From a virus, in the IMG/VR virus record IMGVR_UViG_3300031555_002240: a DNA stretch of 20,646 nt, one strand, 5' to 3'. Both the position numbers and the translations under genes were made by a program. The stretch's first letter is position 1. Each line of letters opens with the position of its first letter. Below the pieces are notes generated by a model. The model saw only the letters and a program-made list of their open reading frames with translations. It made no database searches and had not been told where the DNA came from. Shown here piece by piece: positions 72-19,792 of this stretch.

Positions 72-88
72 ATTGGTTATTCCTTTCA

Positions 89-105
89 TTAATTTTGTAC
101 TGTTA
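89..105 (-). promoter_or_regulatory. Instance a of the conserved leader motif TAACAGTACAAAATTAA (minus-strand sense)
   Basis: Plus strand reads ttaattttgtactgtta. It lies between the -10 and the SD of the left-edge gene. Confidence 0.5.
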
Positions 106-132
106 TTATAGCAGATATTTCTAGTTTGTCAA
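104..132 (-). promoter_or_regulatory. Sigma70-type promoter: TTGACA, 16 nt spacer, TATAAT
   Basis: The minus strand has TTGACA at 132..127 and TATAAT at 110..105 with a 16-nt spacer. It sits between the ligase terminator and the left-edge gene. Confidence 0.65.
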
Positions 133-143
133 GTGTAAATTAA

Positions 144-170
144 GGGCACACAGCGAACCGTGTGCCCTTT
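144..170 (-). terminator. Rho-independent terminator hairpin downstream of the DNA ligase gene
   Basis: GGGCACAC at 144..151 pairs with GTGTGCCC at 160..167 around an 8-nt loop, giving an 8-bp GC-rich stem flanked by T/A runs on both strands. It starts 8 nt after the ligase stop. Confidence 0.65.
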
Positions 171-174
171 CCAA

Positions 175-2103
175 TTAACCCAACATCTTCATTAATTCTT
201 CTTCATTTGCAACTCTAACACCAAGCTGCTGTGCCTTTGTGAGCTTACTGCCAGCTTTTTCTCCTGCGAAAATAATGTCTAGGTTCTTGCTTACGGAGCT
301 AATAAACCTGGCTCCTTTCGCCTCTAGCGCCTTCTTAAGACCATCTCTTGACTGGCTAAACGATCCAGTGATGCAGAACTTTAATCCTTCTAGCGAGTTG
401 TCACTATACTCCTCTTGGAGTACAAAATTCATTTCTTCTGCAAGATCATTGACTTCTCTCCACCATTCATCTAGATAAGTGTCTAAATTCTGCGCCATTG
501 TTGGACCAAAATCCTCAAGATTTGTCCAGTCAAATCCTTGTTCAAATAGTTGATAAAACTTATCGTAACTGCCGTCGCAATGCTTAGAAATGGTTTTAGA
601 TGCAGTCAAGCCAATATTAGGAATACCAAGTGCAGCAATAAAGTTTTCTAGCTTAACATTTCTTGAATCTTCAATGGATTTTAGCAGTTTTTCGATAGAT
701 TTTTTACCAAAACCATCTAGATGAACAAGATCATTATAGTGATCAGAAAGATGGTAAATACCCTTGAAATTGTGGACAAATCCGTGCGAGAGAAGATCCT
801 GAAGGGTTGCCTCTGATAAGTTTTTAATATCCATACCCTTTTTAGAAACAAAATGAGTAAACTGCGCAAGCTTCTTTCCAGCGCATTCAGGATCTGTACA
901 GATTAGCACTTCGGATTCATTGTCTTTTTTGATAGCAGTTGCTCCTCCACAAACAGGGCATTTAGAAGGCCAGCTAAACGTATCACCCTCTTCTACGCAT
1001 TCAATAATTTGAGGAATAATTTGCATGGCTTTAATAACTTTTACTTGCGCACCAACGCCAAGTTTCAGGTTTTTACAGTAGCTAATGTTATGGCAACTTG
1101 CTTTAGACACATCTGTATTATCCAAAACTATGCTATCAAAGTGTGCTACTGGTGTAAGCTGGCCGCTTTTACCCATGCTAAATTCAAAACCTCGAATTGT
1201 TGTTTCTTCTGCATCTTGTGCAAATTTATACGCCTTGCTGTGCCTTGGAAATTTTGATGTGGCTCCCAAACTATCCCAAATAGAAGTATCATCGATTGCT
1301 ATACAAATGCCATCATAAGGATGCGACAATTTATTTGCGCTATTTTTTAACATAGAAATGCAATTGCTAATATAATTATTATCAACATATACCCAAGGCA
1401 CTACATCAAATCCTAACTCGTACAGTTCTTGTAGTCTTTCTCCATAAGAAACTTTATTTGATCCTTGGACAAACTTCCATGCTATAAAATTTAGCTGACG
1501 CTTTTTTGCCTCGTTTGGGTCTAGTAAAGAAACAGATCCGCTGGCAACTGCACGTGGGTGCTTGTAAGGAACTTCTAGCTTTGAGTTCAGTCTATCGAAA
1601 TTAGAGAATGTACAAATCGCCTCGCCGTCTATGATAAACTCTTTACCGTCTGTATTGATATGTGTCGGTATATTGGAAAAAACACATAAATTTGCTGTAA
1701 TATCAGTACCCACTTGTCCATTGCCCCTAGTTGCAATGCTTTCAATGTCTCCATCAGAATTGTAAATAATACGAATGGAAAGACCATCTTCCTTGAGAGA
1801 CATTACAGCTTTACTGTCTCCAACAAAATCAAGAATTTCCTTTTCAGTTGTAATTTTATCAAGACTGAGCATAGGAAATTTGTGTGTAATTTTAGGTAGT
1901 GCACTATTGACTTCATAGCCAACCCTAAGAGAAGGAGATGACGACATTTTATAATTGGTTTCCTGCTCCAACTTAATTAATTCATCATACAAAGTATCAT
2001 ACTCAGTATCAGAGATTAATCCCTGTCCATTATAATATGCGTCACAATATTTATTGCACAACACAGTCAATTCTTTTATTCTATCAATCTTTTGCTTGTC
2101 CAT
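175..2103 (-). CDS. ligA: NAD-dependent DNA ligase (LigA family)
   Basis: The 642-aa product has the KxDG adenylation motif (SLKEDGLS), a Cys4 zinc finger (CPVCGG...CTDPEC), an HhH region and a C-terminal BRCT-like segment (KFCITGSFS). The N-terminal Ia-domain pattern (YYNG...DTEYD) is typical of NAD ligases. A GGAG SD lies 7 nt before ATG 2103. Confidence 0.9.
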   Translation of the reverse strand: MDKQKIDRIKELTVLCNKYCDAYYNGQGLISDTEYDTLYDELIKLEQETNYKMSSSPSLRVGYEVNSALPKITHKFPMLSLDKITTEKEILDFVGDSKAVMSLKEDGLSIRIIYNSDGDIESIATRGNGQVGTDITANLCVFSNIPTHINTDGKEFIIDGEAICTFSNFDRLNSKLEVPYKHPRAVASGSVSLLDPNEAKKRQLNFIAWKFVQGSNKVSYGERLQELYELGFDVVPWVYVDNNYISNCISMLKNSANKLSHPYDGICIAIDDTSIWDSLGATSKFPRHSKAYKFAQDAEETTIRGFEFSMGKSGQLTPVAHFDSIVLDNTDVSKASCHNISYCKNLKLGVGAQVKVIKAMQIIPQIIECVEEGDTFSWPSKCPVCGGATAIKKDNESEVLICTDPECAGKKLAQFTHFVSKKGMDIKNLSEATLQDLLSHGFVHNFKGIYHLSDHYNDLVHLDGFGKKSIEKLLKSIEDSRNVKLENFIAALGIPNIGLTASKTISKHCDGSYDKFYQLFEQGFDWTNLEDFGPTMAQNLDTYLDEWWREVNDLAEEMNFVLQEEYSDNSLEGLKFCITGSFSQSRDGLKKALEAKGARFISSVSKNLDIIFAGEKAGSKLTKAQQLGVRVANEEELMKMLG

Positions 2104-2998
2104 CTTCTTTCTCCTTCATATGTTTGATAATTTTTTGCATTTTATTGAGCCAAAACGAGGTGTTATAATCTAATTTCATTCTATTACATGTTTCACAACA
2201 CGGAAGCACATTCTCTATATCATATCCTTTTGATGAATCTACCCTATCAATTCCAGAATATGGTTCGTCAAAATATTGCTTTTCATATTCTCCACAATAA
2301 TAACATGGCTTTTGTGTTATAATATCAAATTCGTCTTGTGATAACAGAAAGTCTAATCCTCGACTCCTTGCACCTCTTTTGTAAGTATTATATCTACCTG
2401 TAAAAGAATGTACGGAACAATATTTGCATGTACCATGATATCCATCTGCTGTGCTGCTGTTTTTATAAAAATTATCTATACTAAGCATTCTTTTGCACAG
2501 ACAACAAATTTTGCCGACAATATTTTTATCTTCATCGTATTCTCTTAATGATTCATTAAGTTGTGAAATTTTTTCTTTATGGACACATCCGCAACTTGTT
2601 GTAGCCCCATATGAAAGACTTGCTCCAAGAATATCTTTTTCATTGCCACACTCGCACGAACAGTGCCACATCATTTTATGAGTTCCATCATCTTCTATTT
2701 TATCGTCTGCTTGATATAAAACAGTTAATCTACCAAACACCATGCCTGTAAGATCTTTGAACGCCATATTGCGAGCAACTTCCTTTTGGAAACATCCGCA
2801 GCTTTTTGCAGATCCACTTCTTATGTTGCCACCTGGCGAAACAAATATATTTCCACATTCACATTTGCATTCCCATTGAGCTACACGATATCCTTTTGGA
2901 CTAACATAGTCATCAACCCTACGCAACACTGTAATTTTGCTATCAGGAATGCCATGTTCTTTCATAATCCAGCCAGCCATGTCTACAAATTTACCCAT
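2084..2998 (-). CDS. HNH homing endonuclease with two N-terminal Cys-rich zinc repeats
   Basis: Two repeats of the form W.C.CECGN...SCGC are present. The C-terminal HNH motif is YYCGE...GIDRVDSSKGYDIENVLPCCETCNRMK. The gene overlaps the ligA start by 20 nt, and no SD precedes ATG 2998. Confidence 0.8.
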   Translation of the reverse strand: MGKFVDMAGWIMKEHGIPDSKITVLRRVDDYVSPKGYRVAQWECKCECGNIFVSPGGNIRSGSAKSCGCFQKEVARNMAFKDLTGMVFGRLTVLYQADDKIEDDGTHKMMWHCSCECGNEKDILGASLSYGATTSCGCVHKEKISQLNESLREYDEDKNIVGKICCLCKRMLSIDNFYKNSSTADGYHGTCKYCSVHSFTGRYNTYKRGARSRGLDFLLSQDEFDIITQKPCYYCGEYEKQYFDEPYSGIDRVDSSKGYDIENVLPCCETCNRMKLDYNTSFWLNKMQKIIKHMKEKEDGQAKD

Positions 2999-3066
2999 AA
3001 ACTATTTATAAATAATTGAACCACTTTGTATCTTTTACATTATTTATTAAACCTCCTCAATATGTA

Positions 3067-3083
3067 TTAATTTTGTATTGTTA
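3067..3083 (-). promoter_or_regulatory. Instance b of the conserved leader motif GATAACAATACAAAATTAA
   Basis: The TAA stop of the 3081..3428 gene is embedded in the motif. It is followed by a GAGGAGG SD. Confidence 0.5.
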
Positions 3084-3428
3084 TCTTCTACATCTTACAC
3101 TTCCACTGCAATCAATATCACCTGAGACATTACCACAAGTCACAGATCCACTTGCATCAATGTCGCCATTAACATTGCCATCCACTTTACAAGACCCGCT
3201 ACAATCAATGGAACCACAATTGCCATGCACTTCAACAGAGCCAGCGCAGTCAACCTTATTTACGTCACCATATACAACCACTTTGATGTCACGTTCAATA
3301 CTGGATTGAATCACTTTTCCATCGATTATAACTTCGCCGTTCTGGATAGAAATATTTCTTCCAGTACAATCAATAGATTTACCGTTAATAACAACTCTAT
3401 TAAAACTGTTAGTTCTACCAAAAATCAC
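3081..3428 (-). CDS. Cys-rich beta-helical repeat protein, bactofilin-like (DUF583-like)
   Basis: The 115-aa product carries a repeating unit (V/I)DC(A/S)GSV...GN(V/C)xG(D)I of about 15-16 aa, with 11 Cys. The GTG start overlaps the TGA of the upstream gene (GTGA), and a GGAGGG SD lies 8 nt upstream. Confidence 0.45.
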   Translation of the reverse strand: MIFGRTNSFNRVVINGKSIDCTGRNISIQNGEVIIDGKVIQSSIERDIKVVVYGDVNKVDCAGSVEVHGNCGSIDCSGSCKVDGNVNGDIDASGSVTCGNVSGDIDCSGSVRCRR

Positions 3429-3871
3429 TGAAGCATCCCTCCAAGAACTTTATTAACGGCACCCATATCAGCCTTGCCCTTTAGCACAGGCGCAAGAATC
3501 TTCATAAGGACACCTCTGTTTGACTTTGAGAATTCATGTTCATTATTAATAATATCAAGAATTAGATATCGAATTTCAGTTTCGTCAGTAATTAAACTAG
3601 GCGCAAATTCTGCAACAACTGTCATCTGTGCCTTATACTCTTCAAGAGTTTCAATGCGATCAGCGGGGCAAGTGTCAATCTGCTCCTGAACCATTTTTTT
3701 ATACTTTAACAGAACTTCATCAACAAGCGGTTCTGTAATCTCAACACGACCATTATTGGTCATAGACGCCTTCTTTACTGCATCAATCATGCCAGAAAGA
3801 ACTGACTTGCGCAGCTTATCTTTGTTTTTCATGGCCTGAACCATTTCAGACTGTAGTTTTTCTAGTGTCAT
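3425..3871 (-). CDS. GatB/YqeY domain protein
   Basis: The 148-aa product has the N-terminal MK..DKL.K..L pattern and the C-terminal VLKGKADMGAVNKVLGGM pattern characteristic of YqeY/GatB C-terminal domain proteins. A GAGGTG SD precedes ATG 3871. Confidence 0.75.
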   Translation of the reverse strand: MTLEKLQSEMVQAMKNKDKLRKSVLSGMIDAVKKASMTNNGRVEITEPLVDEVLLKYKKMVQEQIDTCPADRIETLEEYKAQMTVVAEFAPSLITDETEIRYLILDIINNEHEFSKSNRGVLMKILAPVLKGKADMGAVNKVLGGMLQ

Positions 3872-3888
3872 TATTAATCACCTCTATA

Positions 3889-3905
3889 TTAATTTTGTTC
3901 TGTTA
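3889..3905 (-). promoter_or_regulatory. Instance c of the conserved leader motif TTAACAGAACAAAATTAA
   Basis: The stop codon of the 3903..4454 gene is embedded in the motif. An SD and the YqeY start follow. Confidence 0.5.
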
Positions 3906-4454
3906 ATATCTCATTCTTTTTTCAATTTCTTCATTAATAATATGTTGCAAACTCACTCCGCCGTAATAAGGTGTTGCGTCCATTACATTACCAACAAGTC
4001 TCTCTCTAATTCTATTTTTCATGTCTTCTTTATAACCGTTAATAGAATAATCAACCAATTCATTTGCAATCTGTTCAATCTTTTCTTGATAATCAGACGT
4101 TGCAATAATTTCTTCAACTTTCTTAGTTAGCTCTTCTCTAATTCTATTATTGAATTGCTTTTGAATAAGCTCACCAATTGTCATATCATTTGTTTTATAA
4201 TTGCCCCACTGATTCTTTTCACGCTCTTTGACATATGCGACCATCTTTGTGTCATACTGACTGGTATCATAATTGAATACACTTTGTCTCTTCTTAACAA
4301 AGAAATCTTTAGTAATAAAATCCATAATAGTCTGCATATCTTCTTCTGAAATTTGAGCAATGTACTGGTCAACAATTTTTTGACCAAGAATCTGGGAGAT
4401 GTCAATATTAATGCCCATCATTTCAAGCTTTCCATCTTTAATTTGTTCACTCAT
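3903..4454 (-). CDS. Hypothetical protein (183 aa, acidic, predicted helical)
   Basis: This is a long ORF with an AAGGAG SD 9 nt before ATG 4454. It is coupled to the upstream PARP-like gene, whose stop overlaps the SD. No recognisable motifs were found. Confidence 0.5.
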   Translation of the reverse strand: MSEQIKDGKLEMMGINIDISQILGQKIVDQYIAQISEEDMQTIMDFITKDFFVKKRQSVFNYDTSQYDTKMVAYVKEREKNQWGNYKTNDMTIGELIQKQFNNRIREELTKKVEEIIATSDYQEKIEQIANELVDYSINGYKEDMKNRIRERLVGNVMDATPYYGGVSLQHIINEEIEKRMRY

Positions 4455-4467
4455 TTATGTCAACTCC

Positions 4468-5688
4468 TTAATTACCAATCTCAATCAAATACTTAATAGT
4501 CATCTGCTCTTCCTTATAAACAACAATCTCGTCATTTCGTAGCATGCCTCTATCAGCATGTGCATGCAGACAATTTGCACCGGGTTTAAACTGCTGAAGT
4601 CTATTATAATCAAGGTTATAATACTTGCTATCAAAGTTATAAACATCGTAAGGAGTGCCATAAGCAACATCGAACAATGCCATGTAGGCAGTGTTGTTAC
4701 CACCGTGTGCCCAATAGGAACCAGACAGAGAAGTGTATCCAATGCTCTTTGCGCACTTGGGGGCATAGTAGCAGCCATAACCAAACATCTTACCAGTGAT
4801 AACTGCATTTGTAGGTCTTAGCACCAGTCCAGTCTTAATAATAGACCAGAAGTTTTCACTACGACTGCCATGGAATAGTAGTCTAGTATCCTTGATATTG
4901 TTATCTGCTACGAACTTGTCAAAGCGATCCTGCGTCTTTAGATTGGTGACTCTCCAAGCCTTTCTAAACTTTCCTGCAGATTCATTCATCAAAGTCTTAA
5001 TCATAGCAACATCATCAGCTGTAGTCTCTTCCATGACAAGACCAAGCTCTTCAAGAATAGTTTGCTGTTTCTTTTCTACAGTCTCGACAGGCTCATCATC
5101 CTGTTTGACATAAATCTGACCACGCATAACGTCAAGTAGATCCTGCTCCTTAGAAATAATTGTAGCAAAGTCTTCAGGCTTATTAGCAAGGTAATCTCTT
5201 ACATTGCCCATCTTTCTAGGAATGACAGTGAACAGCTTGAGCAGATTATCATTAAACTCTTCAATGGTAGAACTATAGTTTGCCAGAGCGTCAATAATTT
5301 TCTGTGCAGCATCAACCATATCCTGAGTAACAGAAGATGCCTTGACAGTGTAATTCTTACGAATGGTTTCACGAGCCATATTCTGTAGCTTTTCAACAAT
5401 TGCTCTGATAGCGGCGTTCTCAATTTCCTTATAAGGACTCTCAGGATTTGCAGAGGAAATTTCCTGTACCAAATCCTTTTTCAAGTCTGTAACATCCTGA
5501 TAGCCCTTCTTGAGCTTGCTTGCAATTTGTGCGTTCCATTTGGACATAGGATAAGTTCTAGTAGTCTTAGTGGCATCGACACGTCCGTACTCGACTCTGA
5601 ACATATCTCCTTCAGGAAAAAGGTTGTAATACTTATTGTTATTTGCAGTGGTGACCATGATAAGGTAGGTCGGCCTTACTTCTGCCAT
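4468..5688 (-). CDS. PARP2/3-like ADP-ribosyltransferase with WGR, helical regulatory and H-Y-E ART catalytic domains
   Basis: The N-terminal WGR-type segment is KYYNLF...MFRVEYGRVDA...SKLKKGY. The catalytic signature is LLFHGSRSENFWSIIKTGLVLRP...ITGKMFGYGCYYA...NDEIVVY. This is nearly colinear with PARP1 (LLWHGSR..NFAGILSQGLRIAP..TGYMFGKGIYFA..YNEYIVY). The H, Y and E triad is intact. A GGAGG SD lies 8 nt before ATG 5688, and an alternative TTG at 5703 is possible. Confidence 0.85.
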   Translation of the reverse strand: MAEVRPTYLIMVTTANNNKYYNLFPEGDMFRVEYGRVDATKTTRTYPMSKWNAQIASKLKKGYQDVTDLKKDLVQEISSANPESPYKEIENAAIRAIVEKLQNMARETIRKNYTVKASSVTQDMVDAAQKIIDALANYSSTIEEFNDNLLKLFTVIPRKMGNVRDYLANKPEDFATIISKEQDLLDVMRGQIYVKQDDEPVETVEKKQQTILEELGLVMEETTADDVAMIKTLMNESAGKFRKAWRVTNLKTQDRFDKFVADNNIKDTRLLFHGSRSENFWSIIKTGLVLRPTNAVITGKMFGYGCYYAPKCAKSIGYTSLSGSYWAHGGNNTAYMALFDVAYGTPYDVYNFDSKYYNLDYNRLQQFKPGANCLHAHADRGMLRNDEIVVYKEEQMTIKYLIEIGN

Positions 5689-5703
5689 AATTAATTCCTC
5701 CAA

Positions 5704-6129
5704 TTAAATCTCACAAATCACAATGTCAACGTCCATATCTTCAAACACTTCGCAGATAATGTCATAAACCTGGTCCCAAGAAAGCTTGTCTAGGCCACAA
5801 CCAATACGGGGCATAGCCAGCTTAGTGGCACCTAGAAAATCTAGCTGTTCCTTCATCATCTCAAGTGCCTCTCTCAGAGATTCGTAGGTGGGCTTATGCC
5901 AGCACTTTCTCTTAGTAACAAGATTAAATACATTATCAATTAGAATTGCATCACCACAATTGTATTCATAATCAGGATAGCTTCTAAATAGCTTAAATCT
6001 CATGTTGTAAACAGTGTCAAAAGTCTTTGCAATGCCAGCGCCAAGAGCGAAGTCTGCGCTGATACAGTGGGCTAGATAGTAGCCCTGAGCCATAGTGAAT
6101 AGATCCTTCTGTACAGTAGTAATAGTCAT
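5704..6129 (-). CDS. TARG1/DarG-like macrodomain (ADP-ribose glycohydrolase, the eraser)
   Basis: The 141-aa product has AHCISADFALGAGIA...WHKPTYESL...MPRIGCGLDKLSW, which aligns to the TARG1/OARD1 core. The catalytic Lys in HKPTYE and Asp in GCGLD are conserved. A GGAG SD lies 9 nt before the ATG. Its stop is 15 nt before the PARP-like start. Confidence 0.85.
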   Translation of the reverse strand: MTITTVQKDLFTMAQGYYLAHCISADFALGAGIAKTFDTVYNMRFKLFRSYPDYEYNCGDAILIDNVFNLVTKRKCWHKPTYESLREALEMMKEQLDFLGATKLAMPRIGCGLDKLSWDQVYDIICEVFEDMDVDIVICEI

Positions 6130-6148
6130 ATTGTTTTCTCCTTTATAA

Positions 6149-6165
6149 TTAATTTTGTATTGTTA
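6149..6165 (-). promoter_or_regulatory. Instance d of the conserved leader motif TTAACAATACAAAATTAA
   Basis: The stop codon of the RecJ-like gene is embedded in the motif. An AAGGAG SD and the macrodomain start follow. Confidence 0.5.
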
Positions 6166-7950
6166 ATTTATAATTTCACTATTTTCAATAATGAACTGAG
6201 CTGTTCGCACTCCCTGGAACTCATTAATTCCAACTGTGCCTACTACGTTAATAGTAATTTTGTCATTGCTGTTCCTATCCCATGCAGATGCCCATTCAAG
6301 CAATGGGTCGTCTTCTTTCATATTAAATTTCACAAATTTGATGTCATTATTTATAAAGCTTATGCTATTAAAGCTTTTGCCTTGAATACGGACTTCTTCA
6401 CGACAAATTGCAATATTTTCAACTGCAACTTTTGGCTCCTTAATACCAGTTCCCCATAGCCAATTATATTGGTCTACTGTTTGGATAAAACCAATATCAA
6501 GTTCGTCAACATCAAATATAAAATCACATGGAATTGTGGGATTGAAATCTACTAAACTTAAAAGCTCTGCAAATTTATTTTTTGCTTCATTTACATTCTC
6601 TCGTTTGATTGCAAGACCAGCCGCATTGCCATGACCAGAACAGAAAATAAAAGAGTTGGTTTTTAGAATTAAATCCTTCAGATCTGGTATAGGACTGCCA
6701 TCATAATTACGACAGCTTCCACTTAGGATTTTTTCGCCATCTTTAATAATTTCCTTAACAATAATTACTGGTCGTTTCAATGTGTCAGCCAGCTTCATAG
6801 CGCTTAGACCAACTAATCCAGTAGTTGCTTGCTGTGATTCAAGGAAAATAACTTTTTCGTTTAAGTCTGCTTGGTCTCGCAACTCATTAAATACTTTGTC
6901 TCTTTGTTTATCCTGTCTGCTCTTTGCGTTCTTAGCGATTCTAGCAGCTCTGTCATAGATGCTTTCATCTACCAATCCAACTCCACGCTTATCATAAGCA
7001 AAAGTTTCATCCGATTCTATCATTGCTCTAAAAACCAGTTCACGTTCCTCAGGAGTGCCAATTCTAGTGATAGAATTAATAACTGGTGCTATATACCAAG
7101 CAATATTATGAACTGTAATCTCGCCATGCATACTGTACTCTTGCGCTTTTGCTAGAGATACAAGAAATTTATTTTTAAAATTGGAAATGCCTTGGTTTAT
7201 AAAATATCTTGTTTCAAAATTGCGAATATCCATAACATCAGCAACGTTGCCAACAAAACACAAGTCTAAGAAGTTATCTGCGTAATCTTCCCACATCTCT
7301 TCATCTAACGCTTGAAGAAATCTATACACAACTCCTGCGCCAGACAAATCTTTGTTGTTATATTCTGAGCTCAGCTGATTATTAACAATAATAGCATTAT
7401 TATATTCTGCTGTTTGATAGTTAACCTCTTCTTCGGATTCATCTTGATAGTTTGCATCGTGGTGATCCAAAATTATAACGTCAATACCTTTTTCAATAAG
7501 TATATTGCATTCATTTGCGTCATTTGTTCCTGCATCTGCCATAATCAACAGCTTTGTGTTGTCTGGGATTTTCGTATATTCATTGCCACCCAAACCATGC
7601 ATTTTAGGTCTAGAGTGCATTACATAAAAGATAGGATAATCTGGATCTAGCGCTTTAACATATAAGTACAACATTGCAGACGATGTATAGCCGTCACAGT
7701 CTTCGTCTGGCATTATAACAATTTTATCGTATGCTTCGTAATGCTTTATAAAGCATTGTACTGCTTTTTGCATATTAGATAGTCCATTATAATCTTGTAC
7801 AACAGCACTGGTTAAATGTAAATATGTATTAGGGTCTTTGATTCCCCTGTTATTTAAAATTGTTTCTATTACATTACTGGTATTATTAGTGCCTATTAGT
7901 TCATATTTCAAATACCGCCACTCCTTTCTAGCATCGTTATTATACAGCAT
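6163..7950 (-). CDS. RecJ-like DHH/DHHA1 family phosphoesterase (ssDNA exonuclease or nanoRNase-like)
   Basis: Motifs present are PDEDCDG (DHH motif I), ILDHHD (DHH motif III) and CSGHGNAAG (DHHA1). ATG 7950 forms the end of the leader motif and has no SD. An alternative TTG start at 7911 has an AAGGAG SD 9 nt upstream and lies downstream of an embedded consensus promoter. The longest-ORF start at 8007 lies inside the terminator hairpin and was rejected. Confidence 0.75.
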   Translation of the reverse strand: MLYNNDARKEWRYLKYELIGTNNTSNVIETILNNRGIKDPNTYLHLTSAVVQDYNGLSNMQKAVQCFIKHYEAYDKIVIMPDEDCDGYTSSAMLYLYVKALDPDYPIFYVMHSRPKMHGLGGNEYTKIPDNTKLLIMADAGTNDANECNILIEKGIDVIILDHHDANYQDESEEEVNYQTAEYNNAIIVNNQLSSEYNNKDLSGAGVVYRFLQALDEEMWEDYADNFLDLCFVGNVADVMDIRNFETRYFINQGISNFKNKFLVSLAKAQEYSMHGEITVHNIAWYIAPVINSITRIGTPEERELVFRAMIESDETFAYDKRGVGLVDESIYDRAARIAKNAKSRQDKQRDKVFNELRDQADLNEKVIFLESQQATTGLVGLSAMKLADTLKRPVIIVKEIIKDGEKILSGSCRNYDGSPIPDLKDLILKTNSFIFCSGHGNAAGLAIKRENVNEAKNKFAELLSLVDFNPTIPCDFIFDVDELDIGFIQTVDQYNWLWGTGIKEPKVAVENIAICREEVRIQGKSFNSISFINNDIKFVKFNMKEDDPLLEWASAWDRNSNDKITINVVGTVGINEFQGVRTAQFIIENSEIIN

Positions 7951-7967
7951 TAATTTTGTATTGTCAA
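7939..7967 (-). promoter_or_regulatory. Sigma70 consensus promoter (TTGACA, 17 nt spacer, TATAAT) overlapping leader-motif instance e
   Basis: The minus strand has TTGACA at 7967..7962 and TATAAT at 7944..7939. The -35 hexamer is the 5' end of the leader motif TTGACAATACAAAATTAATG. An AAGGAG SD lies at 7926..7921. Confidence 0.5.
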
Positions 7968-7981
7968 TTGGACAACATGAA

Positions 7982-15880: not shown

Positions 15881-16384
15881 TTATCCCTCATAAGTTTTAA
15901 ATAGCTGCGCCATCGTCATACCGTTAGCACGAGCAAGATCTACAGCCAAAGCACACACATTTGTTTCATTAGAGGCATGAAGTTCTTCAGCAATGTATTC
16001 AGTTAGAGTGTTATACTCATTGGGACAGCGTGCAGCTACATATTCCTTGAAAGAATAATGATACGCTTCTTTCTCAGAATCTGGTTCATCGTCCCAATCA
16101 ACTCTTAAATCCATGCGCTTATACTGGTTCTCCCATGCAATTAGTTCCTTGCCGTTTACAGTAAAGAAATCGCAAGGTGTTCCCATATTAGAACCCTTGG
16201 CATATCTATACCAACCCCACTCGTCTTTCCATTCAGAAGTGTATTCTAGCTTCTTTACATCATCCTTGGAAAGCTCCCATACCTCGTAATGGGGCTTTTC
16301 ACTACCTCTATAAGTCCTGGTTGCCTTAATGCCAAGCTCCTTAAAAGCTTTATTCAACCCATTGCCGCCTAGAATCTCTGCCAT
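15881..16384 (-). CDS. Hypothetical protein (167 aa, Trp-rich)
   Basis: The ORF is coupled to the upstream gene as TAAATG with a GGAG SD. No recognisable motifs were found. Confidence 0.5.
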   Translation of the reverse strand: MAEILGGNGLNKAFKELGIKATRTYRGSEKPHYEVWELSKDDVKKLEYTSEWKDEWGWYRYAKGSNMGTPCDFFTVNGKELIAWENQYKRMDLRVDWDDEPDSEKEAYHYSFKEYVAARCPNEYNTLTEYIAEELHASNETNVCALAVDLARANGMTMAQLFKTYEG

Positions 16385-17173
16385 TTACTCATTCTCCTTG
16401 TTACTTAAATGTTCCTTCATTGCTTTAATCATATTCAAAACATCACGCTTATGAATATTTTCTTCCATCCATGCGATATAATCAGGTGCGGATTTATAAA
16501 CATCAATTAGACGCTGGCCTGCGTGTCTACCAAATGTTAATGTATAGTTTTCATCAAATTGCAATGGCGCACTTAAATCCGTAAAAATATCTTTTAGATA
16601 TTCAGGTGGCTGCATATCAATATTATTTCTACTGCTCAAAATGTCACATTCATGAATCATAACTTCCATTGGATTTTCTGGTTCAGGAAGTACAACTTTG
16701 CTTTTCTTTGAACTTGTCCACTCACCACTATGTCTTTCGCACATACGTGCAATGGCTTCCTTTGCTTTTTCATCAATGTCATGTTCAACCTTGGTTTCTC
16801 TCACCCAGGTGCCAGCTAACATTGGATGCTCGTGAACTGTATAAGTAGAACCATTCCATCCACACTTGATAGCGTCATGGAAAATAGGCACACATCGCAT
16901 AGCATCACGCTGCATTTCAGATTTGAACTTTTCCTTGTTGCACTTTAAGGAAAGTCTATAATTCAAGATCTCTGCGAACATAATGATATGATAAATCTGC
17001 CCATGAGGCTGACACTGTGTTTTATTATGATACTTTCCAGATGTGCTAGAAGGCATATCAAAAATATAATCTGGAATCTGTTTAATCATATCTGCACAAT
17101 ATAATCGCATTTGCTCAGTCTCAAACTTATCAAGCAGAGGTTGAAACACTGCAACTTTCTGTTCTTCTGTCAT
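16385..17173 (-). CDS. HD-domain phosphohydrolase with a C-terminal DUF3820-like motif
   Basis: HD-type metal ligand candidates are GKYH, IFHDAIK, HSGEW and IHECD. The C-terminal FGRHAGQRLIDV...PDYIAWM resembles the FGKYKG...L..V...DP.YL.WL tail found on many phage nucleases. A GGAGG SD lies 8 nt before the ATG. Confidence 0.55.
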   Translation of the reverse strand: MTEEQKVAVFQPLLDKFETEQMRLYCADMIKQIPDYIFDMPSSTSGKYHNKTQCQPHGQIYHIIMFAEILNYRLSLKCNKEKFKSEMQRDAMRCVPIFHDAIKCGWNGSTYTVHEHPMLAGTWVRETKVEHDIDEKAKEAIARMCERHSGEWTSSKKSKVVLPEPENPMEVMIHECDILSSRNNIDMQPPEYLKDIFTDLSAPLQFDENYTLTFGRHAGQRLIDVYKSAPDYIAWMEENIHKRDVLNMIKAMKEHLSNKENE

Positions 17174-17176
17174 TAC

Positions 17177-17338
17177 TTAATCCTCCACATACTCAACAAC
17201 GTAATCAGTTTTATGACAGCAATCACACTGATATTCTTCGTCGCTCATAACCATTTTTTTAATTTCCTTCTTAGTAGGTTTCATAATTCTAATATAACAC
17301 TTCTTGCATAGGTTTTCATACATGTCCTGCTGACCCAT
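17177..17338 (-). CDS. Small zinc-ribbon-like protein (53 aa), not in the supplied ORF track
   Basis: The product is MGQQDMYENLCKKCYIRIMKPTKKEIKKMVMSDEEYQCDCCHKTDYVVEYVED, with CxxC and CxCC motifs. Its ATG overlaps the upstream stop as TAATG. An AAGGAG SD lies 7 nt upstream, and its 3' end carries the SD for the HD gene. Confidence 0.5.
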   Translation of the reverse strand: MGQQDMYENLCKKCYIRIMKPTKKEIKKMVMSDEEYQCDCCHKTDYVVEYVED

Positions 17339-18231
17339 TATTCTTCTCCTTTAATTTTTCTAAACATATCATCAATATTATCCATGATCGGATATCTTTC
17401 AGTTGCTAAAGAATTTTTACCAAAAGTTCCATCTACCATGTCAATATAGAAAGTATAATTGCCGTCATCGCCCATGTAGAATTCTTCCCACTGCTCTTCA
17501 GGAAGATTTTCCTGTACATGAAGCTGCTTAATTGCAAGGTTATCAAAGCTTACAACCTTAAACCAACCATTGTTAATGACTTCAGGGAACAGATACTTAT
17601 CCAAGTCTTCCTGTAGAGCGTTTACAATTGCATCATTCTGTTCGTAGTAACTTTCTCCACGACGAAGATTCTTATAGCCAAGGATAAGAACCTTGAGATT
17701 ATGTCCTGCCAGACAAGTTAGGTCATGTACAGACACAACACCATTAATCACATGAACAACGGCATTAGGGATCTGAGTAATCATATTAATAAACTTGTCA
17801 GTAGGCTCTTTCAGAGATACACCAAGGCCATAGATTAAGCCCATATCAATCCACTCTTTTAGCGCATTAAAATGTCTTTCAAAATGAATTTGATTGACAG
17901 TCATATTCAGAATGATTTTCTTTTCTCTCATCTTGTACATAAAAGAGACTAGGTCAGGATGAGACAAGTCATTGCCATTGATGGCAAGCTCAGTATAGGG
18001 ATGCAGAGTTTCTAAGAACTTATAGTTCATAATGTCACCATGTCTACCGTTAGGAGTACATCCTTCATAGCAAAACGGACATCCACCATCGCACTTATCA
18101 GTAATTTTCATATCGCAATTTTCTGCAAAAGAAGGAATGAATTCATTGTCATTCGTTTCTCTAATCTTAGTGCCGTCAGACAATATAGTTACAATATAAT
18201 TTCCGTTCTTATACTTGCCAATAATATTCAT
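17338..18231 (-). CDS. Putative radical SAM-like enzyme with a CxxxCxxC motif
   Basis: CDGGCPFC is Cx3Cx2C with an aromatic residue before the third Cys. The size (297 aa) and an N-terminal extension of about 45 aa are compatible with an activase-type radical SAM protein. An AAGGAG SD precedes ATG 18231. Confidence 0.4.
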   Translation of the reverse strand: MNIIGKYKNGNYIVTILSDGTKIRETNDNEFIPSFAENCDMKITDKCDGGCPFCYEGCTPNGRHGDIMNYKFLETLHPYTELAINGNDLSHPDLVSFMYKMREKKIILNMTVNQIHFERHFNALKEWIDMGLIYGLGVSLKEPTDKFINMITQIPNAVVHVINGVVSVHDLTCLAGHNLKVLILGYKNLRRGESYYEQNDAIVNALQEDLDKYLFPEVINNGWFKVVSFDNLAIKQLHVQENLPEEQWEEFYMGDDGNYTFYIDMVDGTFGKNSLATERYPIMDNIDDMFRKIKGEE

Positions 18232-18241
18232 TTAAGTCTCC

Positions 18242-18613
18242 TTAATCATGTCCATAGTAACAAACAGCCACAATCTCTTCGCCATTGGGAGTAGTATAAT
18301 GAGTTACATCAGTCTCATAATAATGGCCCCAATTTTCGTAGGTATAAATCTCATATTCTTTAAGATATTCGTCAATATCATCGTTTTCTTCCATCGGCTT
18401 ATACCAAGATTTTGTCTTAATAAGCTCCATTGCTTCATCATATGTAAGGAATGCTTTATTCTTCAAATGAGAAGTTGTGTCGTACCACCAACCATTATTT
18501 CTATAGACCTTGCCATTTTTCCAATCATCAAACTCATTCTGAGTACACATCGTAATAGAATGTACGGAACTACTATTAGTTTCAAAAACTCCCTGTCTAA
18601 TTTGTCTCTTCAT
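18242..18613 (-). CDS. Protein of unknown function carrying the conserved N-terminal tag MKRQIRQGVFETNSSSVHSI
   Basis: A GGAGG SD lies 7 nt before ATG 18613. The first 20 aa are near-identical to the N-terminus of the adjacent upstream gene product, and the rest is unrelated. Confidence 0.55.
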   Translation of the reverse strand: MKRQIRQGVFETNSSSVHSITMCTQNEFDDWKNGKVYRNNGWWYDTTSHLKNKAFLTYDEAMELIKTKSWYKPMEENDDIDEYLKEYEIYTYENWGHYYETDVTHYTTPNGEEIVAVCYYGHD

Positions 18614-18625
18614 ATAACTTCCTCC

Positions 18626-19186
18626 TTAGTTGCCCTTGTAATACCACTCATAACTATCCCAATCACTCATGTAATATGGGTTTTTAATTTTATGTGTTGT
18701 CTTAGATGACCAGTCATACTCATCCAAGTATTCTTCTGTTCTTTCAATGAAGCATCTTTGTTGAGAATCAGAATTATCATTTCCAGTAAATACTAAACCG
18801 CCACCAAGGAATCGTACTAGTTTATCACCATCATTTAGCAGTTCATCAACAAATTCTTTTAGCTCATAACCATGATCAATATAACCATCATGACTTAGCC
18901 ATCCGTTACGCTCTTCAAAGTCAACATCATAAAAAGTAAACTCAATATCATGTGCGTTCAAAATGTCTTTCAATGTTGCAAGCTTTTCTTCTAGTTCAGC
19001 GGCTGTTTCTGAGGTATCATAAATAGCTGTATAAAAATAATCTGCGGCATCTACTTCATCCCATTCCCATCCAAACTCACCTTCACGAAAATACACACAA
19101 CTTGGCGCTGCACAATTTCTAGGAATTGCGATACTATGTGTGCTACTTGAATTGGTCTCAAACACACCTCTTCTAATTTGAATCAT
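18626..19186 (-). CDS. Protein of unknown function carrying the conserved N-terminal tag MIQIRRGVFETNSSSTHSI
   Basis: ATG 19186 is preceded by an AAAGGAAA SD from the leader motif. An in-frame alternative ATG at 19204 lies inside the motif, and the longest ORF runs to 19282. The tag matches the downstream gene at 16 of 21 positions. Confidence 0.55.
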   Translation of the reverse strand: MIQIRRGVFETNSSSTHSIAIPRNCAAPSCVYFREGEFGWEWDEVDAADYFYTAIYDTSETAAELEEKLATLKDILNAHDIEFTFYDVDFEERNGWLSHDGYIDHGYELKEFVDELLNDGDKLVRFLGGGLVFTGNDNSDSQQRCFIERTEEYLDEYDWSSKTTHKIKNPYYMSDWDSYEWYYKGN

Positions 19187-19203
19187 TTTGTAATTTCCTT
19201 TCA

Positions 19204-19220
19204 TTAATTTTGTTTTGTTA
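19204..19220 (-). promoter_or_regulatory. Instance i of the conserved leader motif TTAACAAAACAAAATTAA
   Basis: The stop of the dCMP deaminase gene is embedded in the motif. An AAAGGAAA SD and ATG 19186 follow. Confidence 0.5.
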
Positions 19221-19634
19221 ATATATAATCTCTTCATGAGAGAATCCGCCCTCATTTGAGTAATAAATGTTTCTGATTCCAAGGTCTTTTATTAAGTTAA
19301 AACAGCTCTCACAAGGCCGTGCAAGCCCCAGTTCGCCGTTTTTATAAGATCTAAATATGTAAATGTCTACATTTTTAAAATCAATATCCTTGCGCCCAAT
19401 AAGCGGCTTGAGGCAACTTGTTTCGGCGTGGCAAGTGTGTGGAGTTTCAACTGTAAATCTGTACTGATTATATTTTTTCTGAAGAGGACTTGTGCGCATA
19501 GAGTTACAGCCTGTGCTGATTACTTTGTGTTTATATACGGCGCACGCACCAATTTGAACTCTAGGAAAATCAGACAGTTTAGATACTTCCTTTGCAATAT
19601 TAAAATATGCCCTGTCTTTCTTTGTCAACTCCAC
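19218..19634 (-). CDS. dCMP/cytidine deaminase family zinc enzyme
   Basis: CHAE plus PCESC is the H(A/C)E...PCxxC zinc-binding signature of the dCMP deaminase (ComEB/Cd) family. The start is GTG at 19634 with an AAAGGTAGAG SD. Confidence 0.8.
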   Translation of the reverse strand: MELTKKDRAYFNIAKEVSKLSDFPRVQIGACAVYKHKVISTGCNSMRTSPLQKKYNQYRFTVETPHTCHAETSCLKPLIGRKDIDFKNVDIYIFRSYKNGELGLARPCESCFNLIKDLGIRNIYYSNEGGFSHEEIIY

Positions 19635-19651
19635 AACTCTCTACCTTTCTT

Positions 19652-19792
19652 TTAATCATACAGCTTTTTATTTTTGCGATCCTTTTGTCTATTGTACTTC
19701 TTACGGCTTTCAACAATTCTTGTTACTGGGCTCATGGGCCACAAGTTGCGTTGCTTCTTAGCCTCTTCCTTTTTCTGATTCTTGTCAATCAC
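19652..19792 (-). CDS. Possible small, highly basic protein (27-46 aa, Lys/Arg-rich)
   Basis: An unannotated ORF ...KKQRNLWPMSPVTRIVESRKKYNRQKDRKNKKLYD lies between the primase-like and deaminase genes. The start is either GTG 19792 (AAGGT SD, overlapping the upstream stop) or ATG 19735 (no SD). Confidence 0.25.
   Translation of the reverse strand: MIDKNQKKEEAKKQRNLWPMSPVTRIVESRKKYNRQKDRKNKKLYD

What the first reader, a model, noticed from the sequence alone, without database searches (positions are those of the whole stretch)
89..19220. A 17-nt leader motif (consensus TTAACARTACAAAATTAAT, gene-strand sense) recurs immediately upstream of the SD of at least 9 genes
The plus-strand form ttaattttgtaytgtta occurs at 89, 3067, 3889, 6149, 7950, 10441, 11148, 15774 and 19204. 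It always lies 1-10 nt 5' of a GGAG-type SD, or of the ATG itself, on the minus strand. In four cases the TAA stop of the upstream gene forms the start of the motif (TTAACA), so it is an intercistronic element. In three cases it is the transcript leader just downstream of a consensus sigma70 promoter. In one case its TTGACA end serves as the -35 of a promoter. Such reuse argues for a function beyond the SD. Candidates are a binding site for a phage translational regulator or ribosomal protein S1 (A/U-rich enhancer), an RNA processing site, or a promoter element for a phage-modified RNA polymerase given its TTAACA -35-like 5' end.
Basis: seen in the sequence. Interest (0 to 1): 0.6.

Follow-up and report, generated by a model that had tools for sequence, protein, structure and literature searches.

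The report
Candidate phage-polymerase promoter, repeated genome-wide
A sharply defined 18-base DNA signal sits in front of about a third of the genes of an uncultured family of large gut-type phages; it is most likely the promoter read by the phages' own unusual single-subunit RNA polymerase, an enzyme family whose promoter has never been defined.

Summary
Nine copies of T(A/G)ACA(A/G)(T)ACAAAATTAAT lie on the gene-sense (minus) strand, against 0.54 expected by chance. They score 25-28 bits, with nothing else above 8 bits. Every intergenic gap of 31 nt or more in the window holds one.

The same 18-mer recurs in 251 unique contexts in related 140-170 kb viral contigs. Its edges are sharp and the upstream flank carries no signal.

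Three results argue against a translational or other RNA-level role:
- Copies sit directly before tRNA genes with no Shine-Dalgarno (SD) sequence.
- In 23 copies the motif forms only the -35 and spacer of a host-type promoter, so that promoter does not transcribe it, yet it stays 91-100% conserved.
- It has no RNA structure and matches no Rfam family.

Selection therefore acts on DNA, in a strand-specific way and next to genes, which points to a promoter.

The clade encodes a homologue of SPbeta YonO, a two-barrel single-subunit RNA polymerase (Pfam RdRP, DFDGD loop). Motif 3'-end variants ("dialects") track polymerase subclades and are shared by all copies within a genome.

The best reading (about 0.55) is a phage-polymerase promoter nested with host sigma-A promoters. 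No transcript 5' ends were available. SPbeta, PMBT24 and c-st lack such a multi-copy motif, so the link to the polymerase is inferred.

The parts
88..105 (-). Motif copy 1 (TAACAGTACAAAATTAAT), 16 nt before the ATG of the next gene (a 161-aa product in the JGI gene calls). It abuts the -10 of a perfect host-type promoter (register a).
105..132 (-). Host sigma-A/sigma-70-type promoter TTGACA-16-TATAAT with TG. The last T of the -10 is motif position 0. A terminator-like hairpin of the ligase gene lies just upstream.
3066..3083 (-). Motif copy 2 (exact consensus). The TAA stop of the 115-aa gene forms motif positions 0-2. It is followed by SD GAGGAGG, an ATG-TAA mini-ORF, and then the HNH-like 304-aa gene.
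3888..3905 (-). Motif copy 3. The stop of the 183-aa gene forms motif positions 0-2. It precedes the YqeY-like gene.
6148..6165 (-). Motif copy 4 (exact consensus). The stop of the RecJ-like gene forms motif positions 0-2. It precedes the macro-domain and PARP genes.
7949..7966 (-). Motif copy 5 (TGACAATACAAAATTAAT). Its 5' end is the -35 of a perfect host-type promoter (register b), so that promoter does not transcribe it. It precedes the RecJ-like gene.
7939..7967 (-). Host-type promoter TTGACA-17-TATAAT overlapping motif copy 5.
7985..8017 (-). Intrinsic terminator (14-bp stem plus T run) ending the MVP-like gene, 18 nt upstream of motif copy 5.
10440..10457 (-). Motif copy 6 (CGACAATACAAAATTAAT), 15 nt downstream of the -10 of a perfect host-type promoter at 10473-10500. 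It precedes the MVP-like 795-aa gene.
11146..11163 (-). Motif copy 7 (TAACAACACAAAATTAAT), 13 nt downstream of the -10 of a perfect host-type promoter at 11177-11204. It precedes the SleB-like hydrolase gene.
15772..15789 (-). Motif copy 8 (TAACAGTACAAAATGAAT). It abuts the -10 of a weaker host-type promoter at 15789-15816 (TTGATT-16-TATATT, TG; register a). It heads the unit that runs from a small gene through the RNA ligase, PNK and Thg1 genes.
19203..19220 (-). Motif copy 9 (TAACAAAACAAAATTAAT). The stop of the deaminase-like gene forms motif positions 0-2. It heads a six-gene unit.

Best explanation
The 18-bp element is a phage-specific promoter that is read on DNA. Its most likely reader is the YonO-type two-barrel single-subunit RNA polymerase encoded by this phage clade.

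Each copy would start a transcript at or just before its 3' end, giving mRNAs with very short leaders that begin immediately before the SD. Some copies would start transcripts just ahead of tRNA genes.

About 40% of copies are nested with perfect host sigma-A promoters in two preferred registers. In one, the -10 abuts the motif. In the other, the motif's 5' end doubles as the -35. The same genes can therefore be reached first by the host polymerase and later by the phage polymerase.

Shown here: the element is discrete, strand-specific, next to genes, under DNA-level selection and lineage-specific, and the clade encodes the polymerase.

For: 1. The element is discrete and far above chance: 9 observed against 0.54 expected, and 25-28 bits against less than 8 bits for everything else.
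2. Across 251 unique contexts (218 non-redundant), conservation is confined to 18 contiguous bp with sharp edges. No upstream -35 or -10 block is present.
3. All copies are co-oriented with the downstream gene, and every window gap of 31 nt or more has one.
4. The element is not translational. Copies lie directly upstream of tRNA genes without an SD or ORF: L072 ends 2 nt before tRNA-Gln, a promoter-less copy in L066 lies 35 nt before tRNA-Leu, and L075 and L069 copies precede tRNA-Ile.
5. Selection acts on DNA. In register b (23 copies, 18 independent contexts) the motif is only the -35 plus spacer of a sigma-70-type promoter, yet it is 91-100% conserved. In register a (33 copies, 25 independent) positions 2-6 lie upstream of the predicted host start, yet are 94-100% conserved apart from the usual A/G alternation at position 5. 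At window 7950, L010 and L063 a strong terminator lies immediately upstream.
6. The motif persists inside coding sequence, with the upstream stop codon at motif position 0 (31 cases) or position 14 (20 cases).
7. The clade encodes a YonO-type polymerase. It matches Pfam RdRP PF05183 at E=1.4e-12, 47.5 bits, against a gathering threshold of 23.8. It has an NGFDFDGD / NGADYDSD loop and matches SPbeta yonO by tblastn at E=5e-14. It lies on contigs that share 73-80% nt identity with the window, and 17 of 28 large motif-bearing contigs are confirmed to carry it.
8. Motif 3'-end dialects (TTAAT, TTATA/T, TGAT) are shared by all copies within a genome and split cleanly along polymerase subclades: 9/9 against 37/37, with no mixing.
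9. There is precedent. The P23-45 two-barrel non-virion polymerase uses a strongly conserved AT-rich motif upstream of 14 start sites. Jumbo-phage polymerases use contiguous AT-rich promoters, and AR9 genes can carry both early and late promoters.
10. The element is absent from bacterial genomes beyond chance level, so it is not a host signal.
Against: - No transcript 5' ends were available, so initiation at the motif is not shown.
- The other YonO-family phages examined have no multi-copy motif: SPbeta has one mapped YonO promoter, and none was found in PMBT24 (first 50 kb) or c-st (first 100 kb). About 70 promoters per genome would be new for this family.
- The motif precedes replication-type, structural and tRNA genes alike, and perfect host promoters also occur in structural regions. 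No temporal class is evident.
- The same motif is kept across polymerases only 41-46% identical, which is looser coupling than in T7-like systems.
- Dialect co-variation could reflect shared ancestry alone.
- Several polymerase-bearing lineages show no motif near the polymerase gene.
- About 60% of copies sit 11-22 nt from the start codon, which an RNA-leader function would also explain.
- The polymerase gene is not in the window itself.
Confidence: 0.55

Rival explanations
1. The motif is an RNA-level linear element. It would act as an endonuclease processing site or a 5'-leader stability determinant that separates cistrons and tRNAs and defines a common 5' end (…ACAAAAUUAAU-SD) on mature transcripts.
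For: Many copies are intercistronic inside operons with no terminator, and they overlap the upstream stop codon. About 30 copies lie wholly within the leader of a host-type promoter. In register a, the host start would fall near motif position 7. That would produce natively the 5' end that cleavage would otherwise create. Copies before tRNA clusters are compatible with processing. The region is unstructured, as single-strand-specific RNases prefer.
Against: In register b (23 copies, 18 independent contexts) the adjacent promoter does not transcribe the motif, and some copies follow a strong terminator, yet the motif is fully conserved. Positions 2-6 are equally conserved in register a, although they lie upstream of the predicted host start. 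tRNA 5' ends need no dedicated site because RNase P makes them. One conserved copy is antisense to the adjacent integrase gene. An 18-nt near-invariant recognition sequence is unusual for bacterial endoribonucleases.
Confidence: 0.2
2. The motif is a promoter read by the host RNA polymerase after redirection by a phage-encoded sigma-like or adaptor factor, in the manner of T4 late or SPO1 middle and late promoters. The YonO-type enzyme would not be the reader.
For: All the DNA-level and orientation evidence applies equally. In SPbeta, PMBT24 and c-st the YonO-type enzyme appears to serve one or few late promoters, not dozens. The motif is unchanged across polymerases only about 41-46% identical.
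Against: No sigma-like gene was identified in the clade, although this was not searched exhaustively. Sigma-dependent promoters are normally short or bipartite, not 16-18 contiguous near-invariant bp. No -10 or -35 geometry can be fitted. Dialects split along YonO-type polymerase subclades.
Confidence: 0.12
3. The motif is a translational operator or enhancer: a binding site on mRNA for a phage translational regulator, ribosomal protein S1 or the ribosome, just 5' of the SD.
For: About 60% of copies place the start codon 11-22 nt after the motif, and the SD core often starts 0-8 nt after it. The sequence is A/U-rich and unstructured.
Against: Copies lie directly upstream of tRNA genes with no SD or ORF. 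A long tail of spacings reaches beyond 100 nt, and 46 of 251 copies have no SD-led ORF within 150 nt. Copies in registers a and b are partly or wholly absent from the adjacent host-promoter transcript yet remain fully conserved. Enhancers are normally degenerate, not 18-nt invariant.
Confidence: 0.05
4. The motif is the operator of a phage DNA-binding regulator that represses or roadblocks host-polymerase transcription. It would not be a promoter.
For: Registers a and b place the motif exactly over the start site or the -35 and spacer of host-type promoters. These are the classic repressor positions. The inverted copy abutting the integrase start could act as an operator.
Against: 153 of 251 copies have no host-type promoter nearby. 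The site is asymmetric and almost always co-oriented with the downstream gene, which orientation-independent operators need not be. A roadblock in front of a third of all genes, tRNA clusters and structural genes included, has no evident rationale.
Confidence: 0.06

Closest known systems
Promoters of phage-encoded two-barrel RNA polymerases: P23-45 gp64 AT-rich early promoter, phiKZ/AR9 virion-polymerase early promoters, AR9 late promoter A(-11)ACA-N6-UA/G(+1)
   Same: All are contiguous, AT-rich, highly conserved, multi-copy, strand-specific motifs immediately upstream of gene starts, in phages that encode a non-canonical two-barrel polymerase. AR9 'continuous' genes carry two promoter types in tandem.
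   Different: The sequence is different. AACA is present at positions 1-4, but the AR9 spacing rule fails because positions 11-12 are AA, not T and W. The element is 18 bp, not about 10-12. The candidate enzyme is a single-chain YonO-type protein, not a multisubunit or tape-measure-fused enzyme. The second promoter type here is a host sigma-A promoter. No start sites have been mapped.
SPbeta YonO and its single late promoter PYONO (Forrest et al. 2017, PMC5467207)
   Same: The polymerase is homologous (tblastn E=5e-14, Pfam RdRP, DFDGD-type loop). Both are large, apparently temperate Firmicutes siphophage-like genomes with an SPbeta/c-st-like replication module.
   Different: SPbeta has one mapped YonO start site heading a 37-gene late operon, and its promoter sequence is undefined. 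No similar motif occurs in the yonN-yonK region. Here there would be dozens of promoters spread over all gene classes.
T7-group single-subunit polymerase promoters (T7, T3, SP6; 17-23 bp)
   Same: The length, contiguity, near-invariance, AT-rich 3' end and bimodal score distribution are similar. Lineage-specific dialects co-vary with the polymerase. These features of the T7 group are from established knowledge and were not tested here.
   Different: The polymerase fold is unrelated (Pol-I-like against two-barrel) and the sequences share no similarity. T7-like phages do not nest their promoters with host promoters in fixed registers.
T4 RegB cleavage sites and RegA translational operators (intercistronic or SD-proximal RNA signals of large phages)
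   Same: They are recurrent short signals next to ribosome-binding sites of many phage genes.
   Different: RegB cuts within GGAG, and the motif contains no G. RegA sites overlap the AUG and are degenerate. The present motif lies upstream of the SD, also precedes tRNA genes, and is conserved where it is not transcribed.

Membership tests
Phage-polymerase-specific promoter | Multi-copy, contiguous, highly conserved motif that is strand-specific and upstream of genes | tested here: met
   Nine window copies at 25-28 bits against less than 8 bits for background. 251 contexts in relatives with sharp 18-bp boundaries, co-oriented with genes.
Phage-polymerase-specific promoter | The phage encodes its own RNA polymerase | tested here: met
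   A YonO-type polymerase is present on related contigs. It is not inside the 20.6-kb window itself. It is linked to the window through contigs that share 73-80% nt identity with it.
Phage-polymerase-specific promoter | The signal acts on DNA, not on RNA | tested here: met
   The motif is fully conserved where it is only the -35 and spacer of a host-type promoter (register b) and where it lies upstream of the predicted host start (register a). Copies occur before tRNA genes.
Phage-polymerase-specific promoter | Promoter and polymerase co-vary between lineages | tested here: inconclusive
   3'-end dialects split cleanly along polymerase subclades and are shared within genomes. Shared ancestry is not excluded, and the core is unchanged across polymerases 41-46% identical.
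Phage-polymerase-specific promoter | Primary transcript 5' ends at a fixed distance from the motif, and polymerase-dependent initiation in vitro | not testable with these tools
   No transcriptome or biochemistry is available. Only a bound can be given: any start must lie at or before about motif position 16-20.
Bacterial sigma-70/sigma-A promoter | -35 and -10 hexamers separated by 16-18 bp | tested here: not met
   The 153 copies without an annotated host-type promoter show a flat upstream profile. They have no TAnnnT at positions 22-27, which is the SD region.
AR9-type late promoter (AACA-N6-T-W) | AACA at -11..-8 and T, W at -1/+1 | tested here: not met
   AACA lies at motif positions 1-4, but positions 11-12 are invariant AA.
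Translational enhancer or operator (S1/epsilon/RegA type) | Present in the mRNA at a functional distance from an SD or AUG | tested here: not met
   There are tRNA-proximal copies without an SD, and a long tail of spacings with 46 of 251 copies lacking an SD-led ORF. Copies are absent from host-promoter transcripts in register b.
Known structured RNA families (Rfam 15) | Covariance-model match at the gathering score | tested here: not met
   There are no matches in the window. Folding z-scores range from -1.2 to +1.4 and the motif is unpaired.
YonO-type two-barrel RNA polymerase (the candidate reader) | RdRP/two-barrel profile match, a DxDGD metal-binding loop, and homology to SPbeta YonO | tested here: met
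   PF05183 at 47.5 bits against a gathering threshold of 23.8. NGFDFDGD or NGADYDSD is invariant as NGxDxDxD. yonO tblastn E=5e-14. The structure was not modelled because the tool is restricted to window proteins.

The most novel reading that the evidence does not exclude
This would be the first promoter consensus for the YonO family of single-chain two-barrel RNA polymerases. In this clade the enzyme would not be confined to one late operon as in SPbeta. It would serve about 70 promoters genome-wide, tRNA clusters and its own gene included. Each promoter is packed against or into a perfect host sigma-A promoter in two fixed registers, so that two unrelated polymerases share the same gene-start architecture.
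Probability: 0.42. Interest if true: 0.72.

Novelty: new member of a known kind. Interest (0 to 1): 0.58.

Why it matters
YonO-type enzymes are minimal single-chain relatives of cellular multisubunit RNA polymerases. Forrest et al. 2017 stated that how they find promoters, and whether they need factors to do so, was unknown. No later definition was found in the searchable literature.

A near-invariant 18-bp candidate promoter with hundreds of natural variants and lineage dialects makes that question directly testable. The test would use one recombinant protein and short DNA templates. It could also yield a compact orthogonal polymerase-promoter pair.

For genome annotation, the motif delimits transcription units in a widespread family of uncultured 140-170 kb phages.

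Tried and rejected
1. Megablast of the whole window against cultured phages gave no hit.
2. The nearest cultured relative by RNA ligase, Bacillus phage Kirov, has only TGnTATAAT promoters and lacks the motif.
3. The region around the mapped SPbeta YonO start (yonN-yonK) has no similar sequence, which is uninformative at 25% polymerase identity.
4. I searched for an analogous multi-copy motif in PMBT24 (first 50 kb) and c-st (first 100 kb) and found none.
5. I searched for replacement motifs in polymerase lineages that lack the 18-mer. L125-type phages have only a possible diverged form (…ACAAAGTGATTGA, three copies). The L146 and L149 repeats proved to be clustered iterons, not gene-proximal signals.
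6. I predicted that the polymerase gene would always sit behind a host promoter and never behind the motif. The result was mixed: the motif lies at -32 to -38 in five loci, and a host-type promoter lies at about -80 in four.
7. The divergent-gene test gave one recurrent case, in which the motif is antisense to an integrase gene and fires into a non-coding, repeat-rich region. This is suggestive but not decisive.
8. The bacterial-genome scan for hosts gave chance-level scatter. Only a few Firmicutes MAG contigs carry several copies.
9. A literature search for the sequence returned only unrelated primer matches.
10. Rejected without further work: a Chi-like or packaging signal, because the motif is gene-start-specific; sporulation-sigma promoters, because there is no upstream partner element; and an ops/RfaH-like element, because it would need to be transcribed through, which conflicts with register b.


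Full report
**The observation**

The plus-strand pattern TTAATTTTGTAYTGTTA, allowing up to 3 mismatches, occurs nine times. All nine are on one strand. Shuffles give a mean of 0.54 and a maximum of 3.

All genes of the window are on the minus strand, so every copy is gene-sense. In gene-sense register the conserved block is 18 nt, T(A/G)ACA(A/G)(T/A/C)ACAAAATTAAT. A position-weight scan gives nine sites at 24.9-28.0 bits and nothing else at 8 bits or more on either strand. The element is therefore discrete and not a tail of AT-rich composition.

- Four stop codons form the first three bases of the motif.
- Perfect TTGACA-16/17-TATAAT promoters lie upstream of three copies.
- One copy supplies the -35 of a host-type promoter.

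A fourth, weaker promoter at 15789-15816 was missed. The motif directly precedes the SD at seven of nine sites.

Every junction of 31 nt or more between genes contains a copy, and no junction of 18 nt or less does. The apparent gap at 19634-19785 is filled by a 46-aa ORF.

**Context**

The window is a phage nucleic-acid-metabolism block. It encodes these genes:
- NAD-dependent ligase, an HNH-like gene, and YqeY
- PARP plus a macro-domain gene
- a RecJ-like gene and a major-vault-protein-like gene
- a SleB-like hydrolase
- Thg1, PNK/HD and an RNA ligase
- a deaminase-like gene and a primase-like gene

It comes from JGI metagenome 3300029305, and independent gene calls agree with mine. It has no close cultured relative. 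The nearest by RNA ligase are about 165-kb Bacillus siphophages at 47% identity, and these lack the motif.

**The motif belongs to a whole phage clade**

The exact 18-mer TAACAATACAAAATTAAT occurs in at least 120 stretches of IMG/VR contigs, mostly 140-170 kb, often several times per contig and spread along them. The window shares 70-91% nucleotide identity in patches with these contigs.

Scanning the stretches gives 251 unique motif contexts, 218 after removing flanks at least 75% identical. In these:
- Information content is confined to positions 0-17, with a C-depleted position 18.
- The upstream flank is flat.
- A purine-rich SD follows at positions 20-26.

About 60% of copies place a start codon 11-22 nt after the motif. 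There is a long tail of larger spacings, and 46 copies have no SD-led ORF within 150 nt. Copies occur in replication-type, structural (portal, terminase, tape-measure) and tRNA regions.

**DNA or RNA?**

Four results bear on this.

First, several copies lie directly upstream of tRNA genes with no SD or ORF between:
- In L072 the motif ends 2 nt before mature tRNA-Gln.
- In L066 an exact copy with no promoter follows an ORF and lies 35 nt before tRNA-Leu.
- In L075 and L069 a copy precedes tRNA-Ile.

A purely translational function is therefore excluded.

Second, 100 of 251 copies have a sigma-70-type promoter (at least 10/12) nearby, and its position is quantised. In 32 copies the last T of the -10 is motif position 0 (register a). 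In 23 copies the motif's own (T)TGACA is the -35 (register b). In about 30 copies the -10 ends 3-24 nt upstream.

In register b the motif is merely the -35 plus the spacer of the promoter, and the spacer has no sequence requirement. That promoter does not transcribe the motif, yet all positions remain 91-100% conserved in 18 independent contexts. In register a, positions 2-6 lie upstream of the predicted host start but remain 94-100% conserved, apart from the usual A/G alternation at position 5, in 25 independent contexts. At window 7950, L010 and L063 a strong terminator lies immediately upstream of a register-b copy.

Third, the 153 copies without a host-type promoter have no -10-like or -35-like signal anywhere. 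They often overlap the end of the upstream gene, with the stop at motif position 0 (31 cases) or position 14 (20 cases). The sequence is therefore maintained even as coding DNA.

Fourth, there is no Rfam match and no RNA structure. Folding z-scores range from -1.2 to +1.4 and the motif is unpaired.

Together these results indicate a DNA-level, strand-specific, gene-proximal signal, which is a promoter. A processing site that acts only on read-through transcripts is weakened but not excluded.

**A candidate reader**

Among large ORFs of the related contigs, a 925-aa protein contains NGADYDSD. The evidence that it is a polymerase is as follows:
- It matches Pfam RdRP (PF05183, two-barrel fold) at 47.5 bits against a gathering score of 23.8.
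- It matches only PHROGs of unknown function and no solved structure by sequence.
- By tblastn it is homologous to SPbeta YonO (E=5e-14). It is closer, at 37-38% identity, to genes of Clostridium phage c-st and Enterocloster phages, some of which are annotated 'RNA-dependent RNA polymerase'.
- Other clade members carry the canonical NGFDFDGD, and NGxDxDxD, AKIGVLD and FRAPM are invariant.

YonO is an experimentally proven DNA-dependent RNA polymerase that transcribes the SPbeta late operon from a single start site. Its promoter sequence was explicitly left undefined. I found no later definition.

The gene lies on contigs that also carry window-like sequence: 3300029305_001452, 3300022661_000062 and 3300024269_000024. 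Two scans found it on 17 of the 28 motif-bearing contigs of at least 140 kb. The other 11 are unresolved, because 59 lower-identity hits were not listed. No motif-rich genome lacking the polymerase was seen.

**Co-variation**

The 3' end of the motif comes in dialects: …AAAATTAAT (the window's), …AAAATTATA/T and …AAAATGAT. Within a genome nearly all copies share one dialect, as in L057, L133, L134, L142 and L151.

Dialects follow polymerase lineage. Within one catalytic-region cluster, a subclade of 7 loci has 9/9 TAA copies, and a subclade of 20 loci has 37/37 TAT copies, with no mixing.

This is the pattern expected for a phage-encoded reader, but shared ancestry could also produce it. The core is unchanged between polymerases only 41-46% identical. 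Some polymerase lineages show no motif near the gene.

**Limits**

- SPbeta shows no similar sequence near its YonO start.
- PMBT24 and c-st have no multi-copy gene-proximal motif.
- A genome-wide set of roughly 70 promoters (9 per 20.6 kb) would therefore be a novelty within the family.
- No temporal class is evident, because both motif and perfect host promoters occur in all modules.
- The polymerase gene is preceded by the motif in some phages and by a host-type promoter in others.
- A host polymerase redirected by a phage factor remains possible. Sigma-like genes were not searched exhaustively.

**Where would transcription start?**

The SD core begins 0-2 nt after the motif in 37 copies. 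A mature tRNA begins 2 nt after it in L072. Any start must therefore lie at or before about motif position 16-20, which is within or at the AT-only 3' half (AAAATTAAT). This gives leaders only a few nucleotides longer than the SD-to-AUG segment. It is an inference.

**Comparison with known systems**

The architecture matches promoters of phage-encoded polymerases: contiguous, AT-rich, near-invariant, multi-copy and directly upstream of genes.

The closest by enzyme type are the two-barrel enzymes. P23-45 gp64 has a strongly conserved AT-rich motif upstream of 14 start sites. Jumbo-phage virion polymerases use AT-rich elements of about 10 nt near -10. The AR9 late promoter reads A(-11)ACA-N6-UA/G(+1), and AR9 'continuous' genes carry two promoter types.

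The AR9 rule is not met here. AACA is present, but positions 11-12 are AA. The crAss-like phi14:2 polymerase has no detectable promoter motif. The motif is not a sigma-70 promoter, not a RegA or RegB site, and not a known RNA family.

**Verdict**

The motif is best filed as a new member of the class of phage-polymerase-specific promoters, and as the first candidate for a YonO-type enzyme. My confidence is about 0.55 that it is a phage-specific promoter read by that enzyme, and about 0.67 for a phage-specific promoter of any kind. Experimental 5'-end mapping and in vitro transcription would settle it.

Noticed in passing
window 3035-3062 (minus strand): A strong SD (GAGGAGG) is followed after 11 nt by a minimal start-stop ORF (ATG TAA). 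The HNH-like 304-aa ORF begins 37 nt further on at 2998 with no recognisable SD. This may be a start-stop regulatory device or a sign of a recently inserted homing-endonuclease gene.
   Followed up: partly
L009 reverse-complement 8394-12223 (also L141, L131, L132, L148, L151, L143; L115 has a 243-nt gap): The YonO-type polymerase gene is split into a 657-aa part and a 267-aa part. In L009 a 223-aa ORF with its own motif copy sits between the halves. It may be an intron or a homing-endonuclease insertion in the polymerase gene.
   Followed up: no
L048 5459-7226 (same in L007, L071, L083, L097, L119): An integrase-like 383-aa gene and an Xis-like 77-aa gene flank a non-coding region of about 350 nt rich in GTACCACA-type repeats. 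An exact motif copy abuts the integrase SD in antisense orientation and points into the repeats. This suggests the clade is temperate, and that there may be an antisense transcript against the xis-int region.
   Followed up: partly
L146 121-3040 and 3885-4040; L149 8363-8520: There are arrays of the palindrome GTTTTTAAAAAC (14 copies) and tandem iterons containing TATTGTAATACA with a period of about 29 nt, all in non-coding DNA. These phages belong to a polymerase lineage that lacks the 18-mer. The arrays look like replication-origin or partition repeats.
   Followed up: partly
window 8032-10419: This 795-aa protein has major-vault-protein shoulder, Vault_3 and SPFH/Band-7 domains. Its only hits in the phage collection, at 39-40% identity over the full length, are in 462-735 kb uncultured 'huge phage' records LR756500-LR756503.
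   Followed up: no
window 4468-6129: A PARP catalytic-domain protein (411 aa) lies immediately downstream of a macro-domain protein (141 aa) in one motif-delimited unit. This is a possible ADP-ribosylation writer-eraser pair.
   Followed up: no
window 11213-15560: One motif-headed unit contains Thg1-like tRNA-His guanylyltransferase, PNK/HD, a nucleotidyltransferase-like ORF and an RNA ligase. It looks like a tRNA-repair cassette, and the clade also carries large tRNA clusters (10-14 genes per locus in L005, L069, L075).
   Followed up: no
window 18242-18613 and 18626-19186: Two adjacent ORFs share the N-terminal motif I(R/Q)(R/Q)GVFETNSSS(T/V)HSI. They appear to be tandem paralogues of unknown function, and the first is the gene headed by motif copy 9.
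   Followed up: no
window 105-132, 7939-7967, 10473-10500, 11177-11204 (minus strand): There are four 12/12 matches to TTGACA-16/17-TATAAT, three of them with an extended TG. Such perfect consensus promoters are also abundant in relatives, including inside structural-gene regions (L117, L098).
   Followed up: partly
L125 (also L126, L127, L139): This polymerase-bearing lineage lacks the 18-mer but has three copies of …A(C/T)A.AAAG(T/G)GATTGA just upstream of SDs, one of them in front of the polymerase gene. It may be a strongly diverged dialect of the motif.
   Followed up: partly
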